Of a stretch of DNA of 64,000 nucleotides, positions 41,916 to 45,701 are shown piece by piece. Under the pieces are notes generated by a model. The model was not told the origin of the DNA. It searched no databases and worked only from the letters and a program-made list of their open reading frames with translations. The DNA is from an uncultured Candidatus Saccharibacteria bacterium (GTDB lineage Bacteria > Patescibacteriota > Saccharimonadia > Saccharimonadales > 2-12-FULL-41-12). The position numbers and the translations under genes were made by a program. The stretch lies in NCBI GenBank assembly GCA_964404795.1, contig CAYOLI010000002.1:7766-71765 (forward strand). The letters are read 5' to 3'. Position 1 is the first letter of the stretch. Every line of letters starts with the position of its first letter.

Positions 41916-42007
41916 GGAGAGGTGTCCGAGTGGCTGAAGGAGCACGCTTGGAAAGCGTGTGTTGTGAGCAATCGCAACCGAGGGTTCGAATCCCTCTCTC
42001 TCCGCCA
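41916..42007 (+). tRNA. tRNA-Ser (anticodon GGA), CCA encoded
   Basis: Manual cloverleaf: acceptor GGAGAGG/TCTCTCC, anticodon stem CACGC/GCGTG with loop TTGGAAA, a long variable arm, T-loop GGTTCGAATCC. Confidence 0.9.
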
Positions 42008-42045
42008 TAGCAAAAGGTCAATAACAATGGATAGCAAGTGTGCAT

Positions 42046-42291
42046 ATGATCGACGTAGAAAATAAAATCGATTATTCAGCGATTATCGATAAATACCCCT
42101 GGATAGTGAAGCGAAACCAAAAATATATTCTTAGCCCCGATAGTGACGGTTTTCTGTGTGCGTTACTACTTACAAACTATCTGGATAGCCAAGTTGTAGG
42201 ATTTTACGATGGCAAAGTTGCATTAATAGCGGGCATACCCCCGTCGAGGAGTGTATCTTCCTTGATATGGACATTAACAGAAAACATCTAA
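42046..42291 (+). CDS. 5' segment of a frameshifted unknown-function gene with DHH-phosphoesterase-like motifs
   Basis: ILSPDSDGFLCALLL (DxD motif-I-like). The ORF leaves the conserved frame at the C5 run 42238-42242. Confidence 0.5.
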   Translation: MIDVENKIDYSAIIDKYPWIVKRNQKYILSPDSDGFLCALLLTNYLDSQVVGFYDGKVALIAGIPPSRSVSSLIWTLTENI

Positions 42292-43082
42292 GGAGTATCG
42301 GGCACCACATGGTAACCTATAACAAACGGTTAACCGAGATAAACTTTAATTACCCCTCCAACTGTATCCAGCCAAATATATGGCGCAATTTTGATGGCAG
42401 GAACGACTTCCAGGCCAAGTATCCATTTGGAACTATTCATTTGCTACTTGGCATTCTACATCAGCATAAAATTATCTCTGAACTTCAAGAAGATGCTATT
42501 TGGCCACTTCTCTTTACTGATGGGGTGTGGAATAATCTATTTGGCTATACAGAAAACTGTATTGAATGGATAGAATATCTAAACATAAATCAAAAAGACA
42601 ACGTAATGCATAAGTTATTTTGTGCGAACGACCAAAGTTTTTACGAAATCATGATTGGGCTAAATGATTTTCTGAGGATGCGCGATACATACAACGCCAA
42701 GGGTTTTGCAAATACGCTCGGTGAGTACATTCAAGGTGGCAGGAACAAAAGAACTGGTGATAAATTAAAAATTTCAAACCCTAAAGGCGAACCAATTAAT
42801 ATCGTTCGAAACGGATCACTATTCGACATACACAAAACAGAGGTAATACGAATCGAAGGATTTATTAGTGCTATGTCGAAATACGTAGGATGGCCATATG
42901 ACTCTGCAAAATGGACCTGGGATCAGTTGAGGTTACTAAGGTTTACAAAGGGAGATTTTTCCGCCTCTTCCCTAAATAATCAGTCCTATACTCAACTAAT
43001 GAGCCAAAATCCTTTATCGATGGCAATGACCAGCGGTAATAACATCGAATACACACTAGAAACTCCCGATACTATGGCTTAG
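42267..43082 (+). CDS. 3' segment of the same gene (candidate nuclease partner of the adjacent methyltransferase)
   Basis: This frame is already open upstream of 42267 and reads ...PVEECIFLDMDINRKHLRSIGHHMV (motif II/III-like) directly from the C5 run. It converges on the MTase with 9 bp between the stops. Confidence 0.55.
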   Translation: MDINRKHLRSIGHHMVTYNKRLTEINFNYPSNCIQPNIWRNFDGRNDFQAKYPFGTIHLLLGILHQHKIISELQEDAIWPLLFTDGVWNNLFGYTENCIEWIEYLNINQKDNVMHKLFCANDQSFYEIMIGLNDFLRMRDTYNAKGFANTLGEYIQGGRNKRTGDKLKISNPKGEPINIVRNGSLFDIHKTEVIRIEGFISAMSKYVGWPYDSAKWTWDQLRLLRFTKGDFSASSLNNQSYTQLMSQNPLSMAMTSGNNIEYTLETPDTMA

Positions 43083-43091
43083 CCATCAAGT

Positions 43092-44525
43092 TTATAAAAG
43101 CTTATCCGGAGCATCAACCTTAATGCGTTCCTTGGATAACTCGCAATACTCTTTTGAGATATCGATACCGATATAGTTTCTATCTAGGTTCTTAGACGCG
43201 ACAAGCACTGAGCCAGAACCAACAAACGGATCAAGCACAATGCCCCCTATAGGGCAAAAACAATCTATCAGGTCTATCGGTATTTGGTCTGGGAAGACGG
43301 CTGGATGTTTTCTTTTTAGCGGGTTTTTGTCTCCAGCATTAAGGTAGTTCCAAATAGTACCTCGGCATTTTGTTGGGTTAATCGGCCTGGTAACTGTTTT
43401 CGTAGTCGTACCATCTGTTTTACGATTTCCGCTGCCTGTCATAATTTTCCCTCCATGTTTTGACGGAATTTTTAGTCTCTCTTTGTTAAAATATTGCGGC
43501 CTATCACCCTTTATAAAAATAGGGATGTACTCGTGGTCTACGCGAAAACGATTTTTCCACCAAGCACCTTCAGTCCCATGCTTTCGATAAATGACAGTTT
43601 CAAATAGCTTGAAGCCAATATTATCAACCCAGTCAACAATTGTCCGAAAAGACGTCATGGTCTTGCCAAAATTCTTTGTCTGATCCTGAATAACCATCGC
43701 TACTATTCCTCCATCTTTGAGCACTCTATATAACTCCTTACCGGTGGCGTGAAGATCGAATTCAAAACCGTTATAGCTCCTCACATTATCGTATGGAGGC
43801 GACGTAACCACCATATCTACCGAATTATCCGGAATCTTCCTCATCACCTCGACAGAGTCGCCCCAAATGACCTTGTTAATTGGGACTGCTTGTTTTTTTA
43901 TGTCTTTATTTACAAAATTAATGTCGAGAGATAGACTGTGCAACGTCTTAATAATTTCAATCACTACCCCTAAAATTTTCGTATTTTCTAAGGAGCTATA
44001 CTGATGTTGTTTGTTTGCAAACTGGATGTTAATTTGAGCGCCCGATTTAACCAAAGACCCCACCAAATACTTTCCTTTATCAGTTACTGTAACTACCTTT
44101 TTACCATTCGCAAGAACATTGGATTCGCCAATAATTAACAAATCACCATCGTCAATGCCTTCTTCTTTTAGATACTCTCCACTAACCAAGAAAGCAAAAA
44201 CATTATCATACTTATTAACTTTACTCCTGGGTAAACCAATAACTTCTCGAGTATCTGTGGTCTGCAATAAAATATCGCCAGATAGGGTGCCAACTACTGA
44301 AACTTGTACCATTGGCTCGTTTTCTATTACAGATATTCCGCGATGAACGCTACTATCTTTATTAATTTTGCCGTATTTTTCTAATTTGTTAATGTGGTAC
44401 GCAACGGTAGACACCGACGACAAATGAAACTCTCTTTTGATTTCTTCAAACGAAGGTGATAAATTGTTCTTCTGATAGTATTCTTTTATAAATTTTAATA
44501 TATCTTTTTGTCTCTGAGTCATCAT
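43092..44525 (-). CDS. fusion protein: LexA-like repressor (wHTH + catalytically inactive S24 fold) joined to a beta-class N4/N6 DNA methyltransferase
   Basis: The N-terminus MTQRQKDILKFIKEYYQKNNLSPSFEEIKREFHLSSVSTVAYHINKLEKYG aligns with the LexA DNA-binding domain. FAFLVSGEYLKEEGIDDGDLLII...ILGVVIEIIK aligns with the S24 domain. Then come DSVDMVVTSPPY (motif IV) and, later, VLDPFVGSGS (motif I). The start is placed at the ATG-ATG at 44525/44522, because the tracked upstream extension runs through the promoter. Confidence 0.8.
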   Translation of the reverse strand: MMTQRQKDILKFIKEYYQKNNLSPSFEEIKREFHLSSVSTVAYHINKLEKYGKINKDSSVHRGISVIENEPMVQVSVVGTLSGDILLQTTDTREVIGLPRSKVNKYDNVFAFLVSGEYLKEEGIDDGDLLIIGESNVLANGKKVVTVTDKGKYLVGSLVKSGAQINIQFANKQHQYSSLENTKILGVVIEIIKTLHSLSLDINFVNKDIKKQAVPINKVIWGDSVEVMRKIPDNSVDMVVTSPPYDNVRSYNGFEFDLHATGKELYRVLKDGGIVAMVIQDQTKNFGKTMTSFRTIVDWVDNIGFKLFETVIYRKHGTEGAWWKNRFRVDHEYIPIFIKGDRPQYFNKERLKIPSKHGGKIMTGSGNRKTDGTTTKTVTRPINPTKCRGTIWNYLNAGDKNPLKRKHPAVFPDQIPIDLIDCFCPIGGIVLDPFVGSGSVLVASKNLDRNYIGIDISKEYCELSKERIKVDAPDKLL

Positions 44526-44532
44526 GTAACAA

Positions 44533-44561
44533 ATTATAGAAAATATATAGAAAATTATCAA
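44533..44561 (-). promoter_or_regulatory. sigma70-like promoter TTGATA-17-TATAAT ending 7 nt before the ATG (leaderless-type), overlapped by tandem TTTTCTATA repeats
   Basis: Minus strand reads TTGATAATTTTCTATATATTTTCTATAATTTGTTAC-ATGATG. The 9-bp direct repeats (plus-strand TATAGAAAA at 44535-44543 and 44546-44554) have an 11-bp period. No SD is present. Confidence 0.55.
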
Positions 44562-44606
44562 ATATTAACCTATAAAGATGTGCCCAGTCCATGGAAAATC
44601 TTAGTA

Positions 44607-44954
44607 CTACTCATCCGCCGCCAGTAAGCCGAACTTTGTTAATAGAGTAGTAAATTCTTGCGTCCTTAAAGCCGGATCGGCGACTTTAATATAATCCTTT
44701 TTTAGCATACCTAACGATTGTTTCTGTAGGTTATCGAATTCGATTACTTTTTCGGGAGTGGCATACGCTAACCCATGGTAACCACAGTCATGACACTTTA
44801 GTGCAAGCAGGTAATGGTGCGTTCCGTGCCTTCTAGATGCCGGGATGATGCTATCGTCGAAGTCGAGAAAGTTTTTGTTACAATCGGGGCAACAGTCGAT
44901 TCTTGGTTCTTGATCAAAATATTTTTCTTTTTCCCAGTCTATAAATTCGCTCAT
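44607..44954 (-). CDS. small zinc-ribbon protein (hypothetical)
   Basis: CPDC...CHDC gives four Cys ligands. It has its own TTGCAA-17-TATAAC promoter-like element (44964-44992), 9 nt upstream of the ATG, and no SD. Confidence 0.55.
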   Translation of the reverse strand: MSEFIDWEKEKYFDQEPRIDCCPDCNKNFLDFDDSIIPASRRHGTHHYLLALKCHDCGYHGLAYATPEKVIEFDNLQKQSLGMLKKDYIKVADPALRTQEFTTLLTKFGLLAADE

Positions 44955-44993: not shown

Positions 44994-45701
44994 CTAGCTA
45001 ATTTTTGTACCGACTTCTTGTCCCTTGGCGGCTCTTGAAATATTGAGGTGCTTCATGGCATCGAAAACTATTATTGGCATCTGGTGTTCCATGGCCATGC
45101 CAAGGGCTGCTTTGTCCATGATTTTAATACTATTGTCTTCGACAGCTTGCTGAAATGACAAATACTCATATTTGTTAGCGTCTTTGTGGGTGAGTGGGTC
45201 TTTGTCGTATACTCCATCAACCTTGGTAGCTTTTAAAACTATCTCGCAATCCAGTTCTAGTGACAAGACAATTGACGCAGTATCGGTGGTTAAATACGGT
45301 CTGCCCGTGCCGCCAGCGGTAATAACTACTCTACCTTTTTCAAGGTGCTTGTTGGCAAGTCGATGGATAAACGGCTCTGCCACCTGATCTGCAAAAATAC
45401 TACTGAGACAACGAGTTTTTATGCCGTTATGCTCGAAGATATCGGTGAGAGCCAGGGCATTTATCATAGTCCCCAGCATTCCCATATGGTCTGCGGTAAC
45501 TCGCTGTATGCCATGTCCTGCTATTCTTGCTCCACGCACAAAATTACCGCCACCAATCATAATCACGATTTGTGTACCATCGGAGGCAGCGTCTTTAACC
45601 TCGTGCGCAAGCCAACTAGCTATCTCTAGATCGATTCCACCATCGTACTTGCCAGAAAGTTGTTCGCCGGACAACTTTAAGAGTACTCTTTTGTATTTCA
45701 C
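44994..45701 (-). CDS. pyrH: UMP kinase
   Basis: KRVLLKLSGE...GGGNFVRG...TTDTA motifs. Confidence 0.9.
   Translation of the reverse strand: MKYKRVLLKLSGEQLSGKYDGGIDLEIASWLAHEVKDAASDGTQIVIMIGGGNFVRGARIAGHGIQRVTADHMGMLGTMINALALTDIFEHNGIKTRCLSSIFADQVAEPFIHRLANKHLEKGRVVITAGGTGRPYLTTDTASIVLSLELDCEIVLKATKVDGVYDKDPLTHKDANKYEYLSFQQAVEDNSIKIMDKAALGMAMEHQMPIIVFDAMKHLNISRAAKGQEVGTKIS

What the first reader, a model, noticed from the sequence alone, without database searches (positions are those of the whole stretch)
44526..44606. Leaderless-type promoter of the LexA-MTase gene overlapped by tandem 9-bp repeats (candidate autoregulatory operator)
Seen in sequence:
- The minus strand reads TTGATA-A-TTTTCTATA-TA-TTTTCTATA-AT-TTGTTAC-ATGATG.
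- This gives a near-consensus -35 (TTGATA), a 17-bp spacer and a consensus -10 (TATAAT).
- The -10 ends 7 nt before the start codon and there is no Shine-Dalgarno, so a leaderless mRNA is expected.
- Two exact TTTTCTATA direct repeats with an 11-bp (one helical turn) period fill the spacer and the -10.

Inference: a protein bound to the repeats would occlude RNA polymerase. The fused LexA-like domain is the obvious candidate. As I recall, controller-protein-regulated R-M operons are often transcribed as leaderless mRNAs from operators that overlap the promoter.
Basis: partly seen in the sequence, partly recalled or inferred. Interest (0 to 1): 0.55.

Follow-up and report, generated by a model that had tools for sequence, protein, structure and literature searches.

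The report
Self-repressed leaderless promoter of LexA-methyltransferase gene
The two 11-bp-spaced repeats are the conserved LexA operator over the promoter of a LexA-DNA-methyltransferase fusion gene in a Patescibacteria (CPR) bacterium, so this is classical repressor self-control in an unusual fused, restriction-modification-like setting.

Summary
On the minus strand lie TTGATA (44561-44556), a 17-bp spacer, TATAAT (44538-44533), 7 nt without a Shine-Dalgarno, then ATGATG (44525). Two exact ATTTTCTATA copies, 11 bp apart, fill the spacer and the -10.

Comparison makes this a real operator. All 48 homologous LexA-methyltransferase loci, two variants lacking the peptidase domain and eight stand-alone Patescibacteria lexA genes carry a period-11 repeat at the promoter. 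Base 6 of the half-site co-varies with one residue of the LexA recognition helix in all 59 loci. About half of the loci keep the -10 exactly 6-7 nt before the ATG.

This is therefore the ancestral Patescibacteria lexA promoter and LexA box, inherited by a LexA-methyltransferase fusion. The fusion is paired tail-to-tail with a conserved 340-aa gene, probably a nuclease.

- Leaderless promoters are a genome-wide habit here (15 of 62 genes).
- The regulator is LexA-type, not a C protein.
- This copy has lost the Ala-Gly site, Ser and Lys needed for autocleavage, and its partner gene is frameshifted.

It probably acts as a constitutive, damage-blind autorepressor. No transcription start or binding data exist.

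The parts
44556..44561 (-). -35 hexamer TTGATA
   Evidence: Sequence. Promoter scan gives 11 of 12 matches, the best in 6 kb. It aligns with TTGCAA/TTTCAC in 17 homologous promoters.
44546..44555 (-). Operator half-site 1, ATTTTCTATA, in the promoter spacer
   Evidence: Conserved as (A/C)TTTC(T/G)AT in homologs.
44535..44544 (-). Operator half-site 2, ATTTTCTATA; its last four bases are the first four of the -10
   Evidence: TTTCTATAAT is nearly invariant in the aligned leaderless-type promoters.
44533..44538 (-). -10 hexamer TATAAT
   Evidence: The spacing to the ATG is conserved at 6-7 nt.
44523..44532 (-). TTGTTAC plus the ATG start codon. There is no Shine-Dalgarno. The predicted transcription start is at or next to the A of the ATG (44525).
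   Evidence: Sequence. The first Met aligns with Met1 of homologs. Inference only; no transcription start data.
44340..44522 (-). LexA winged-helix DNA-binding domain (aa 2-62), with recognition helix SVSTVAYHINKL
   Evidence: PF01726, E=2.3e-12. TIGR00498 lexA scores 113.3 bits against a cut-off of 110.95. Tyr43 fits the rule 'aromatic residue goes with CTAT half-site'.
43959..44252 (-). Degenerate S24 (LexA C-terminal) domain; the Ala-Gly site, Ser and Lys are replaced
   Evidence: PF00717, E=4.7e-9. Alignment with E. coli LexA. 117-118 of 119 family representatives keep each residue, and only this protein lacks all of them.
43128..43820 (-). Beta-class N4/N6 DNA methyltransferase domain (SPPY motif, FxGxG motif intact)
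   Evidence: PF01555, E=1.7e-38. The closest solved structures are N4-cytosine methyltransferases, 8s9n E=4e-18.
42025..43082 (+). Convergent partner gene (conserved ~340-aa family, putative nuclease), split here by a 1-nt deletion near 42235
   Evidence: The family is next to the methyltransferase in nearly all of L001-L080. A single-base difference from the intact copy in L081. The predicted fold weakly resembles DHH/RecJ proteins.

Best explanation
A sigma-70-type promoter (TTGATA, 17 bp, TATAAT) starts transcription at or within a base of the ATG of a LexA-DNA-methyltransferase fusion gene. The mRNA therefore has no leader and no ribosome-binding site.

The two direct repeats (TTTCTAT-N4-TTTCTAT, one helical turn apart) are the Patescibacteria LexA box. 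[quoted passage not shown] Because the sites cover the spacer and the -10, binding excludes RNA polymerase. The result is negative autoregulation.

In relatives, RecA-stimulated autocleavage at Ala-Gly would lift this repression after DNA damage. In this copy the cleavage site and the Ser-Lys dyad are gone, so the loop is most likely a damage-blind homeostat that sets the methyltransferase level.

Shown here: the sequence anatomy, its conservation, the co-variation of operator and helix, and the loss of the cleavage residues. Inferred: the transcription start, binding, dimer geometry and repression.
For: **Anatomy**
-.

**Conservation**
- A period-11 TTC-core repeat lies upstream of all 49 fusion loci. 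It is about 95-fold enriched over background at 7/8 or better.
- 18 promoters align with TTTC.AT..A.TTTCTA.AAT invariant.
- An exact 21-nt operator/-10 pattern scanned in metagenomes gave 93 downstream ORFs. Of these, 58 are LexA-like, and 46 of those 58 have a 6-7 nt gap between the -10 and the start.

**Specificity link**
- The helix residue at the Tyr43 position is F/Y/H where half-site base 6 is A, and Q/E where it is G. This holds in 59 of 59 loci.
- The classes are interspersed on a tree of the non-DNA-binding part of the protein.

**Same promoter on stand-alone lexA**
- Eight of eight stand-alone lexA loci examined carry the same promoter and operator.

**Known precedent**
- LexA boxes that are direct repeats with an 11-bp period (GTTC-N7-GTTC) are established (PMC8565304).
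- A direct-repeat motif is cited for Patescibacteria (PMC7739468).

**Leaderless habit of this genome**
- -10-like hexamers peak 6-8 nt before the first ATG in 15 of 62 ORFs.

**Loss of autocleavage residues**
-.
Against: - There are no transcription start, footprint or expression data.
- No terminator was detected between the upstream same-strand ORF (which ends at 44607) and the promoter. Read-through transcripts with an 80-nt leader cannot be excluded.
- The S24-like domain is strongly diverged (long branch), so dimerisation and cooperative binding could be weakened.
- Gene callers in public assemblies start the protein at the second ATG (476 aa).
- No second operator was found in 64 kb, so the wider regulon is untested.
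- The operator-helix co-variation is partly confounded by shared ancestry.
Confidence: 0.75

Rival explanations
1. The repeats are an operator, but a different protein binds them: a separate stand-alone LexA or another repressor encoded elsewhere in the genome. The fused domain would then have another role.
For: - Only 64 kb of the genome is visible.
- Closely related stand-alone LexA proteins (63-73% identical to the LexA part of a fusion homolog, P0017) exist in Patescibacteria and use the same box.
Against: - The window holds no second LexA-like gene.
- The half-site co-varies with the helix of the adjacent fused domain in every locus, even where the rest of the protein is nearly the same.
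- Variants lacking the S24 domain obey the same rule.
Confidence: 0.1
2. The promoter is minor. The gene is mainly co-transcribed with the two upstream same-strand genes on a leadered mRNA, so the leaderless reading is wrong even if the operator is real.
For: - The upstream ORFs at 44607..44954 and 44994..45701 are on the same strand, with gaps of 81 and 39 nt.
- No terminator-like site was found between them and the promoter.
Against: - The upstream neighbours are unrelated and mostly divergent in the other loci, yet the -10-to-ATG spacing is kept.
- The promoter is near-consensus.
- There is no Shine-Dalgarno to serve a leadered transcript.
Confidence: 0.12
3. The repeats hold the methyltransferase's own target site, and control works through methylation of the promoter, as in CfrBI-type systems, rather than through the LexA domain.
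For: Methylation-dependent promoters are known in restriction-modification systems (PMC3874152).
Against: - The methyltransferase domain is extremely conserved (70-76% identical even across phyla).
- The half-site sequence nevertheless changes between CTAT, CGAT, CGGT and CGGG, following the DNA-binding domain.
- Stand-alone lexA genes without any methyltransferase have the same operator.
Confidence: 0.03
4. The repeat is a chance or relic feature of AT-rich DNA with no present function in this decaying locus.
For: - The window-wide chance level is only about 0.05.
- The locus shows decay: lost cleavage residues, lost DnaA-box-like element and a frameshifted partner.
Against: - Both half-sites are perfect and in the conserved register with the -35, the -10 and the ATG.
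- The protein is only 64% identical to its nearest relatives, and the rest of the intergenic region is unalignable.
Confidence: 0.05

Closest known systems
LexA autoregulation through a direct-repeat LexA box (Alphaproteobacteria GTTC-N7-GTTC; a direct-repeat motif is also cited for Patescibacteria, Sanchez-Osuna, Barbe and Erill 2017, Environ Microbiol 19:3465)
   Same: - LexA winged helix plus S24 module.
- Operator over its own promoter.
- Two direct 4-nt cores with an 11-bp period. Here the core is TTTC-N7-TTTC; some relatives read GTTC-N7-GTTC (L032, L047).
- The identical promoter precedes stand-alone Patescibacteria lexA genes.
   Different: - The repressor is fused to a DNA methyltransferase.
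- This copy lacks the Ala-Gly site and the Ser-Lys dyad.
- No SOS gene with the box is seen in the window.
- I could not read the 2017 paper. That it reports a direct repeat rests on its citation in PMC7739468. Whether it describes the fusion is unknown to me.
Methyltransferases that repress their own gene through an N-terminal helix-turn-helix (SsoII, Ecl18kI, EcoRII, ScrFI; reviewed in PMC3874152)
   Same: - DNA-binding domain at the N-terminus of the methyltransferase.
- Operator overlapping the methyltransferase promoter.
- An adjacent conserved partner gene that behaves like a restriction gene.
   Different: - Those are C5-cytosine methyltransferases with a short HTH region and inverted-repeat operators between divergent genes.
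- Here a whole LexA (wHTH plus S24) is fused to a beta-class N4/N6 enzyme.
- The operator is a direct repeat and the partner gene is convergent.
C-protein-controlled restriction-modification operons with leaderless transcripts (AhdI, PvuII)
   Same: - A promoter-overlapping operator.
- A transcript that starts at the first base of the start codon (PMC2275141).
   Different: - There is no separate small C gene and no C-box inverted repeats.
- Leaderless promoters are common across this genome.
- The logic here is pure repression, not activation followed by repression.

Membership tests
LexA repressor (TIGR00498 / PF01726 + PF00717) | N-terminal LexA-type winged-helix DNA-binding domain | tested here: met
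   PF01726 over aa 2-62, E=2.3e-12. TIGR00498 scores 113.3 bits against a cut-off of 110.95.
LexA repressor (TIGR00498 / PF01726 + PF00717) | C-terminal S24 peptidase fold | tested here: met
   PF00717 over aa 92-189, E=4.7e-9. Matches LexA chains in the PDB, for example 3k2z at E=8.8e-16.
LexA repressor (TIGR00498 / PF01726 + PF00717) | Scissile Ala-Gly bond and Ser-Lys catalytic dyad | tested here: not met
   The window protein has G-D, Y and G at the positions of E. coli A84-G85, S119 and K156. 117-118 of 119 fusion relatives keep each residue.
LexA repressor (TIGR00498 / PF01726 + PF00717) | LexA box at its own promoter (autoregulation) | tested here: met
   Sequence and comparative evidence only. 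Binding was not tested.
LexA repressor (TIGR00498 / PF01726 + PF00717) | Controls a DNA-damage regulon; RecA-dependent cleavage | tested here: inconclusive
   No further box in 64 kb. No recA in the window. Cleavage cannot be tested with these tools.
Self-repressing methyltransferase of a restriction-modification system (SsoII type) | DNA-binding domain fused to the N-terminus of an active-looking methyltransferase | tested here: met
   One ORF of 477 aa holds LexA_DNA_bind, S24 and N6_N4_Mtase, with SPPY and FxGxG motifs.
Self-repressing methyltransferase of a restriction-modification system (SsoII type) | Operator overlapping the methyltransferase promoter | tested here: met
   The repeats cover the spacer and the -10.
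Self-repressing methyltransferase of a restriction-modification system (SsoII type) | Cognate restriction endonuclease gene alongside | tested here: inconclusive
   - A conserved ~340-aa partner accompanies the methyltransferase across phyla, either convergent or co-directional.
- It is mostly absent beside viral copies, present in 4 of 80.
- It has no Pfam or PDB sequence match and only weak DHH-like fold hits.
- It is frameshifted in this window.
Self-repressing methyltransferase of a restriction-modification system (SsoII type) | C5-cytosine methyltransferase with inverted-repeat operator | tested here: not met
   The enzyme is a beta-class PF01555 methyltransferase and the operator is a direct repeat.
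C-protein-controlled restriction-modification operon | Separate small HTH controller gene and paired inverted-repeat C-boxes | tested here: not met
   No such ORF or boxes were found. The upstream 115-aa ORF has no family hit. The only repeats are direct.
Leaderless mRNA promoter | -10 element 5-8 nt upstream of the start codon and no Shine-Dalgarno | tested here: met
   TATAAT, 7 nt, then ATG. The spacing is conserved.
Leaderless mRNA promoter | Mapped 5' end at the start codon | not testable with these tools
   No transcript data are available.

The most novel reading that the evidence does not exclude
In Patescibacteria the SOS repressor LexA has been recruited as the sensor and controller of restriction-type modules.
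- It is fused to a methyltransferase that pairs with a conserved DHH-like putative nuclease.
- Elsewhere it heads operons with DpnI-like or NmeDI-like endonucleases.
- Its promoter usually carries a DnaA-box-like element.

In the fusion systems, self-inflicted DNA breaks would trigger RecA-dependent cleavage of LexA-methyltransferase. That would derepress the gene and raise methylation. The result would be a damage-sensing safety loop for a restriction-modification system, possibly tied to the replication cycle. The window copy would be a decayed version: non-cleavable, without the DnaA-box-like element, and with a frameshifted nuclease.
Probability: 0.25. Interest if true: 0.8.

Novelty: new variant of a known kind. 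Interest (0 to 1): 0.5.

Why it matters
The promoter and operator are a clean, comparatively validated example of LexA self-control with a direct-repeat box in an uncultivated lineage. They give a ready-made specificity code: one helix residue against one operator base.

The setting is the interesting part:
- A full LexA is fused to a highly conserved, mobile DNA methyltransferase that travels with an uncharacterised putative nuclease.
- Sister lexA genes head operons with DpnI-like endonucleases.

If the link between the DNA-damage sensor and restriction-type genes is functional, it would be a new way of regulating such systems. It would also be testable in E. coli with cloned parts.

For this particular window the biology is more ordinary. 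It is a non-cleavable autorepressor on a leaderless promoter of a kind that is common in this genome.

Tried and rejected
- **Regulon search in the window.** TTTCTAT-N4-TTTCTAT with up to 3 mismatches gave only the known site plus chance-level hits. There is no recA, dnaA or second lexA in the window.
- **Regulon search in metagenomes.** The 21-nt operator/-10 pattern was scanned. The hits not next to LexA were mostly one Firmicutes glycoside-hydrolase-1 gene and scattered AT-rich matches, judged to be chance.
- **Operator at other positions in the homologous loci.** None was found within about 3 kb of the fusion gene, including at the partner gene.
- **Conserved upstream neighbour.** Rejected. 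45 upstream ORFs belong to 27 unrelated Pfam families, and only 2 contain GIY-YIG.
- **Partner gene identity by sequence.** No Pfam, NCBIfam or PDB hit. The fold search gave only weak DHH/RecJ-like matches (TM about 0.3, best E=1.5e-3), so 'nuclease' stays a hypothesis.
- **Integration next to tRNA-Ser.** No att-like repeat was found.
- **Rfam.** Only three tRNAs in the window.
- **Literature.** The 2017 Patescibacteria SOS paper is not held. No held paper mentions a LexA-methyltransferase fusion.
- **DnaA-box-like element as the methyltransferase target.** Rejected. It is absent from methyltransferase-only loci of other phyla and present at stand-alone lexA genes.

Full report
**1. What is in the sequence**

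- The -35 is at 44561..44556, the spacer is 17 bp, and the -10 is at 44538..44533.
- Seven nucleotides with no Shine-Dalgarno follow, then the ATG at 44525.
- The repeat is exact over 10 nt (ATTTTCTATA; 44555..44546 and 44544..44535), start to start 11 bp.
- The promoter match (11 of 12) is the best in 6 kb.
- The 9-mer by itself is at chance frequency.
- The period-11 pair is unique in the window. A first-order Markov model expects 0.05 such pairs per 64 kb.
- The full two-site pattern has no other hit with fewer than 2 mismatches.

**2. The gene**

ORF 43092..44525 (minus strand, 477 aa) contains three domains:
- LexA_DNA_bind (aa 2-62);
- Peptidase_S24 (aa 92-189);
- N6_N4_Mtase (aa 236-466).

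The first 195 residues pass NCBI's LexA equivalog cut-off, though barely (113.3 bits against 110.95). The methyltransferase has SPPY and FxGxG motifs. It is closest to N4-cytosine methyltransferases among solved structures.

More than 120 full-length fusions at 53-64% identity exist in Patescibacteria (Nomurabacteria, Giovannonibacteria, Pacebacteria and others). Many are annotated 'transcriptional repressor LexA'. A scan of genome assemblies found 332 related loci.

**3. The operator is conserved and tied to the fused domain**

I extracted the upstream regions of 48 fusion loci plus the window.
- Every one has a period-11 direct repeat with a TTC core within 160 nt of the start.
- 38 of 49 match at 7/8 or better, against 0.008 such repeats per 170 nt elsewhere in 374 kb of the same loci.
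- The half-site varies between TTTCTAT, TTTCGAT, TTTCGGT and (T/C)TCGGG, and the two halves change together.
- The variation follows one residue of the recognition helix (Tyr43 in the window). F/Y/H goes with A at half-site base 6. Q/E goes with G.
- The rule holds in all 49 loci, in two fusions that lack the S24 domain and in eight stand-alone lexA loci. That is 59 of 59.
- On a neighbour-joining tree of the protein without its DNA-binding domain, the operator classes are interspersed. For example, L026 (CGGG class) sits inside a CTAT clade. Domain and operator have therefore switched together several times.

This is the strongest available evidence, short of a footprint, that the fused domain reads these repeats. 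It also argues against the repeats being the methyltransferase target. That domain is 70-76% identical even across phyla, while the operator changes.

**4. Leaderless architecture**

- In 24 of 49 loci the second half-site ends 8-9 nt before the ATG, so the -10 ends 6-7 nt before it.
- An alignment of 18 such promoters shows -35, repeat, repeat/-10 and ATG in fixed register.
- A metagenome scan with TTTCTATWTATTTTCTATAAT returned 120 stretches. 58 of the 93 downstream ORFs were LexA-like. Among those 58 the gap from the -10 to the start was 6 nt in 30 and 7 nt in 16.
- In the spacing class of 6, the A of the ATG sits at the textbook +1 position. This follows from the standard -12..-7 placement of the -10 hexamer.
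- In this genome -10-like hexamers pile up 6-8 nt before the first ATG of 15 of 62 long ORFs. Shine-Dalgarno-like tetramers mark about 20 of 62.

Leaderless starts are therefore a genome-wide habit, not a mark of restriction-modification control.

**5. It is the ancestral lexA promoter**

Stand-alone LexA proteins of about 210 aa, 63-73% identical to the LexA part of a fusion homolog (P0017), are common in Patescibacteria. All eight loci I fetched carry the same repeat at the promoter, and several show the same spacing from the -10 to the ATG. The fusion therefore inherited the lexA promoter and LexA box.
- Direct-repeat LexA boxes with this 11-bp period are known (GTTC-N7-GTTC in Alphaproteobacteria; PMC8565304).
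- A direct-repeat motif is cited for Patescibacteria (PMC7739468).
- The primary paper is not held.

**6. What is special about this copy**

Alignment with E. coli LexA shows the following:
- the Ala84-Gly85 site is replaced (LSGD instead of IAAG);
- Ser119 is replaced by Tyr;
- Lys156 is replaced by Gly.

Of 119 full-length family representatives, 117-118 keep each residue, and only this protein lacks all of them. It sits on a long branch. Repression here should therefore not respond to RecA.

**7. Context: a restriction-modification-like pair**

- Tail-to-tail with the fusion gene lies a conserved gene of about 340 aa. It is present in virtually all fusion loci.
- It also lies next to methyltransferase-only relatives in Clostridia (co-directional there), Planctomycetes, Bacteroidota and DPANN archaea.
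- In viral contigs the methyltransferase is usually alone; the partner is present in 4 of 80. Solitary phage methyltransferases countering a cellular nuclease would give this pattern.
- The partner has no Pfam, NCBIfam or PDB sequence match.
- A confident model (pLDDT 89.8) gives only weak fold hits, all to DHH-family proteins (RecJ, Cdc45/GAN, PAP phosphatase; best E=1.5e-3, TM about 0.3). This fits its SPDSDG, FLD, GHH and TDG motifs.
- In the window the gene is split by a single-base deletion near 42235, relative to an otherwise identical contig, L081.

The 'R-M' label is therefore plausible but unproven. The known analogues are methyltransferases that repress their own promoter through an N-terminal HTH (PMC3874152). 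C-protein operons are a looser analogue, and their leaderless transcripts are documented for AhdI and PvuII (PMC2275141).

**8. Verdict**

- Kind: LexA autoregulation (known), in a new variant. The repressor is fused to a methyltransferase of a mobile two-gene module, and here it is non-cleavable.
- Confidence in the mechanism is 0.75. The main uncertainty is the lack of any transcription start or binding data, together with possible read-through from upstream genes.

Noticed in passing
L001-L054, L285-L292 (about -45 to -55 from the start); absent at window 44562-44585: A perfect DnaA-box-like 9-mer, TGTGGATAA(C) or its complement TTATCCACA, sits 6-7 nt upstream of, or abutting, the -35 of lexA and lexA-methyltransferase promoters in most Patescibacteria loci.
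- 39 of 47 occurrences in 318 kb lie within 130 nt upstream of the gene.
- It is more conserved than the LexA box.
- It is missing in the window and in methyltransferase-only loci of other phyla.
- It may couple lexA expression to DnaA.
   Followed up: partly
window 43959-44290 (aa 80-189 of the fusion protein): The window's LexA part has lost the Ala-Gly cleavage site, the catalytic Ser and the Lys. 117-118 of 119 related fusions keep each residue, and only this protein lacks all of them. This is a naturally non-cleavable LexA.
   Followed up: yes
window 42025-43082 (+), frameshift near 42235; intact in L081:11441-12484: The conserved convergent partner gene is split by a one-base deletion in the window and in contigs L082-L084. 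It is intact in L081, which encodes the same LexA-methyltransferase protein and is otherwise identical across the ~1.1-kb partner region aligned. This looks like a strain-level knockout of the putative nuclease.
   Followed up: yes
L001-L080 downstream genes; alignments A4 and A5; model m8c21cf07a147: The partner family (949 database hits, all 'hypothetical', no Pfam domain) has invariant SPDSDG, FLD, GHH and TDG motifs. A confident AlphaFold model has only weak matches, all to DHH/RecJ/Cdc45 proteins. It may be a nuclease family not yet described as a restriction enzyme.
   Followed up: partly
L285, L288, L290, L292 (DpnI family); L287 (NmeDI_C); L289 (RhuM, between uvrB and uvrA): Stand-alone Patescibacteria lexA genes are followed within 6-50 nt by restriction-type genes in 5 of 8 loci checked. 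Four are DpnI-like methyl-directed endonucleases and one is NmeDI-like. This suggests a recurrent lexA-nuclease operon.
   Followed up: partly
whole window: About a quarter of long ORFs (15 of 62) have a -10-like hexamer 6-8 nt before the first ATG. About a third have a Shine-Dalgarno-like tetramer. The genome appears to mix leaderless and leadered genes.
   Followed up: partly
L049:2992-4050, L073:3001-4119: Some relatives are shorter fusions: the LexA DNA-binding domain joined directly to the methyltransferase with no S24 domain. They still have the matching operator and the DnaA-box-like element.
   Followed up: partly
L205-L284 (IMG/VR contigs, including giant-virus MAGs): The methyltransferase domain alone occurs at 40-72% identity in many viral contigs. 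None of these carries the LexA part.
   Followed up: partly
L003, L005, L010, L018, L036, L037, L054 and others, between the -10 and the start codon: Homologs with 30-57 nt leaders carry (A/T)GTCAA just before the start codon. On the opposite strand this reads TTGAC(T/A). In L005 it lies 17 nt from a TATATT. This suggests a face-to-face divergent promoter for the (variable) upstream gene.
   Followed up: partly
window 41916-42007 (+): A tRNA-Ser(GGA) gene lies about 30 nt upstream of the partner gene. No att-like repeat of its 3' end was found in 41.8-45.8 kb.
   Followed up: partly
window 44607-44954 (-): The upstream 115-aa ORF has paired Cys motifs (CCPDC ... CHDC) and no family hit in Pfam or NCBIfam. 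It is not conserved next to the fusion gene in other genomes.
   Followed up: no
window 44376-44391 vs 44527-44542: A 16-nt inverted copy (88% complementary) of the promoter-proximal half-site and discriminator lies 135 nt inside the coding region, in the codons of the recognition helix. It is probably chance.
   Followed up: no
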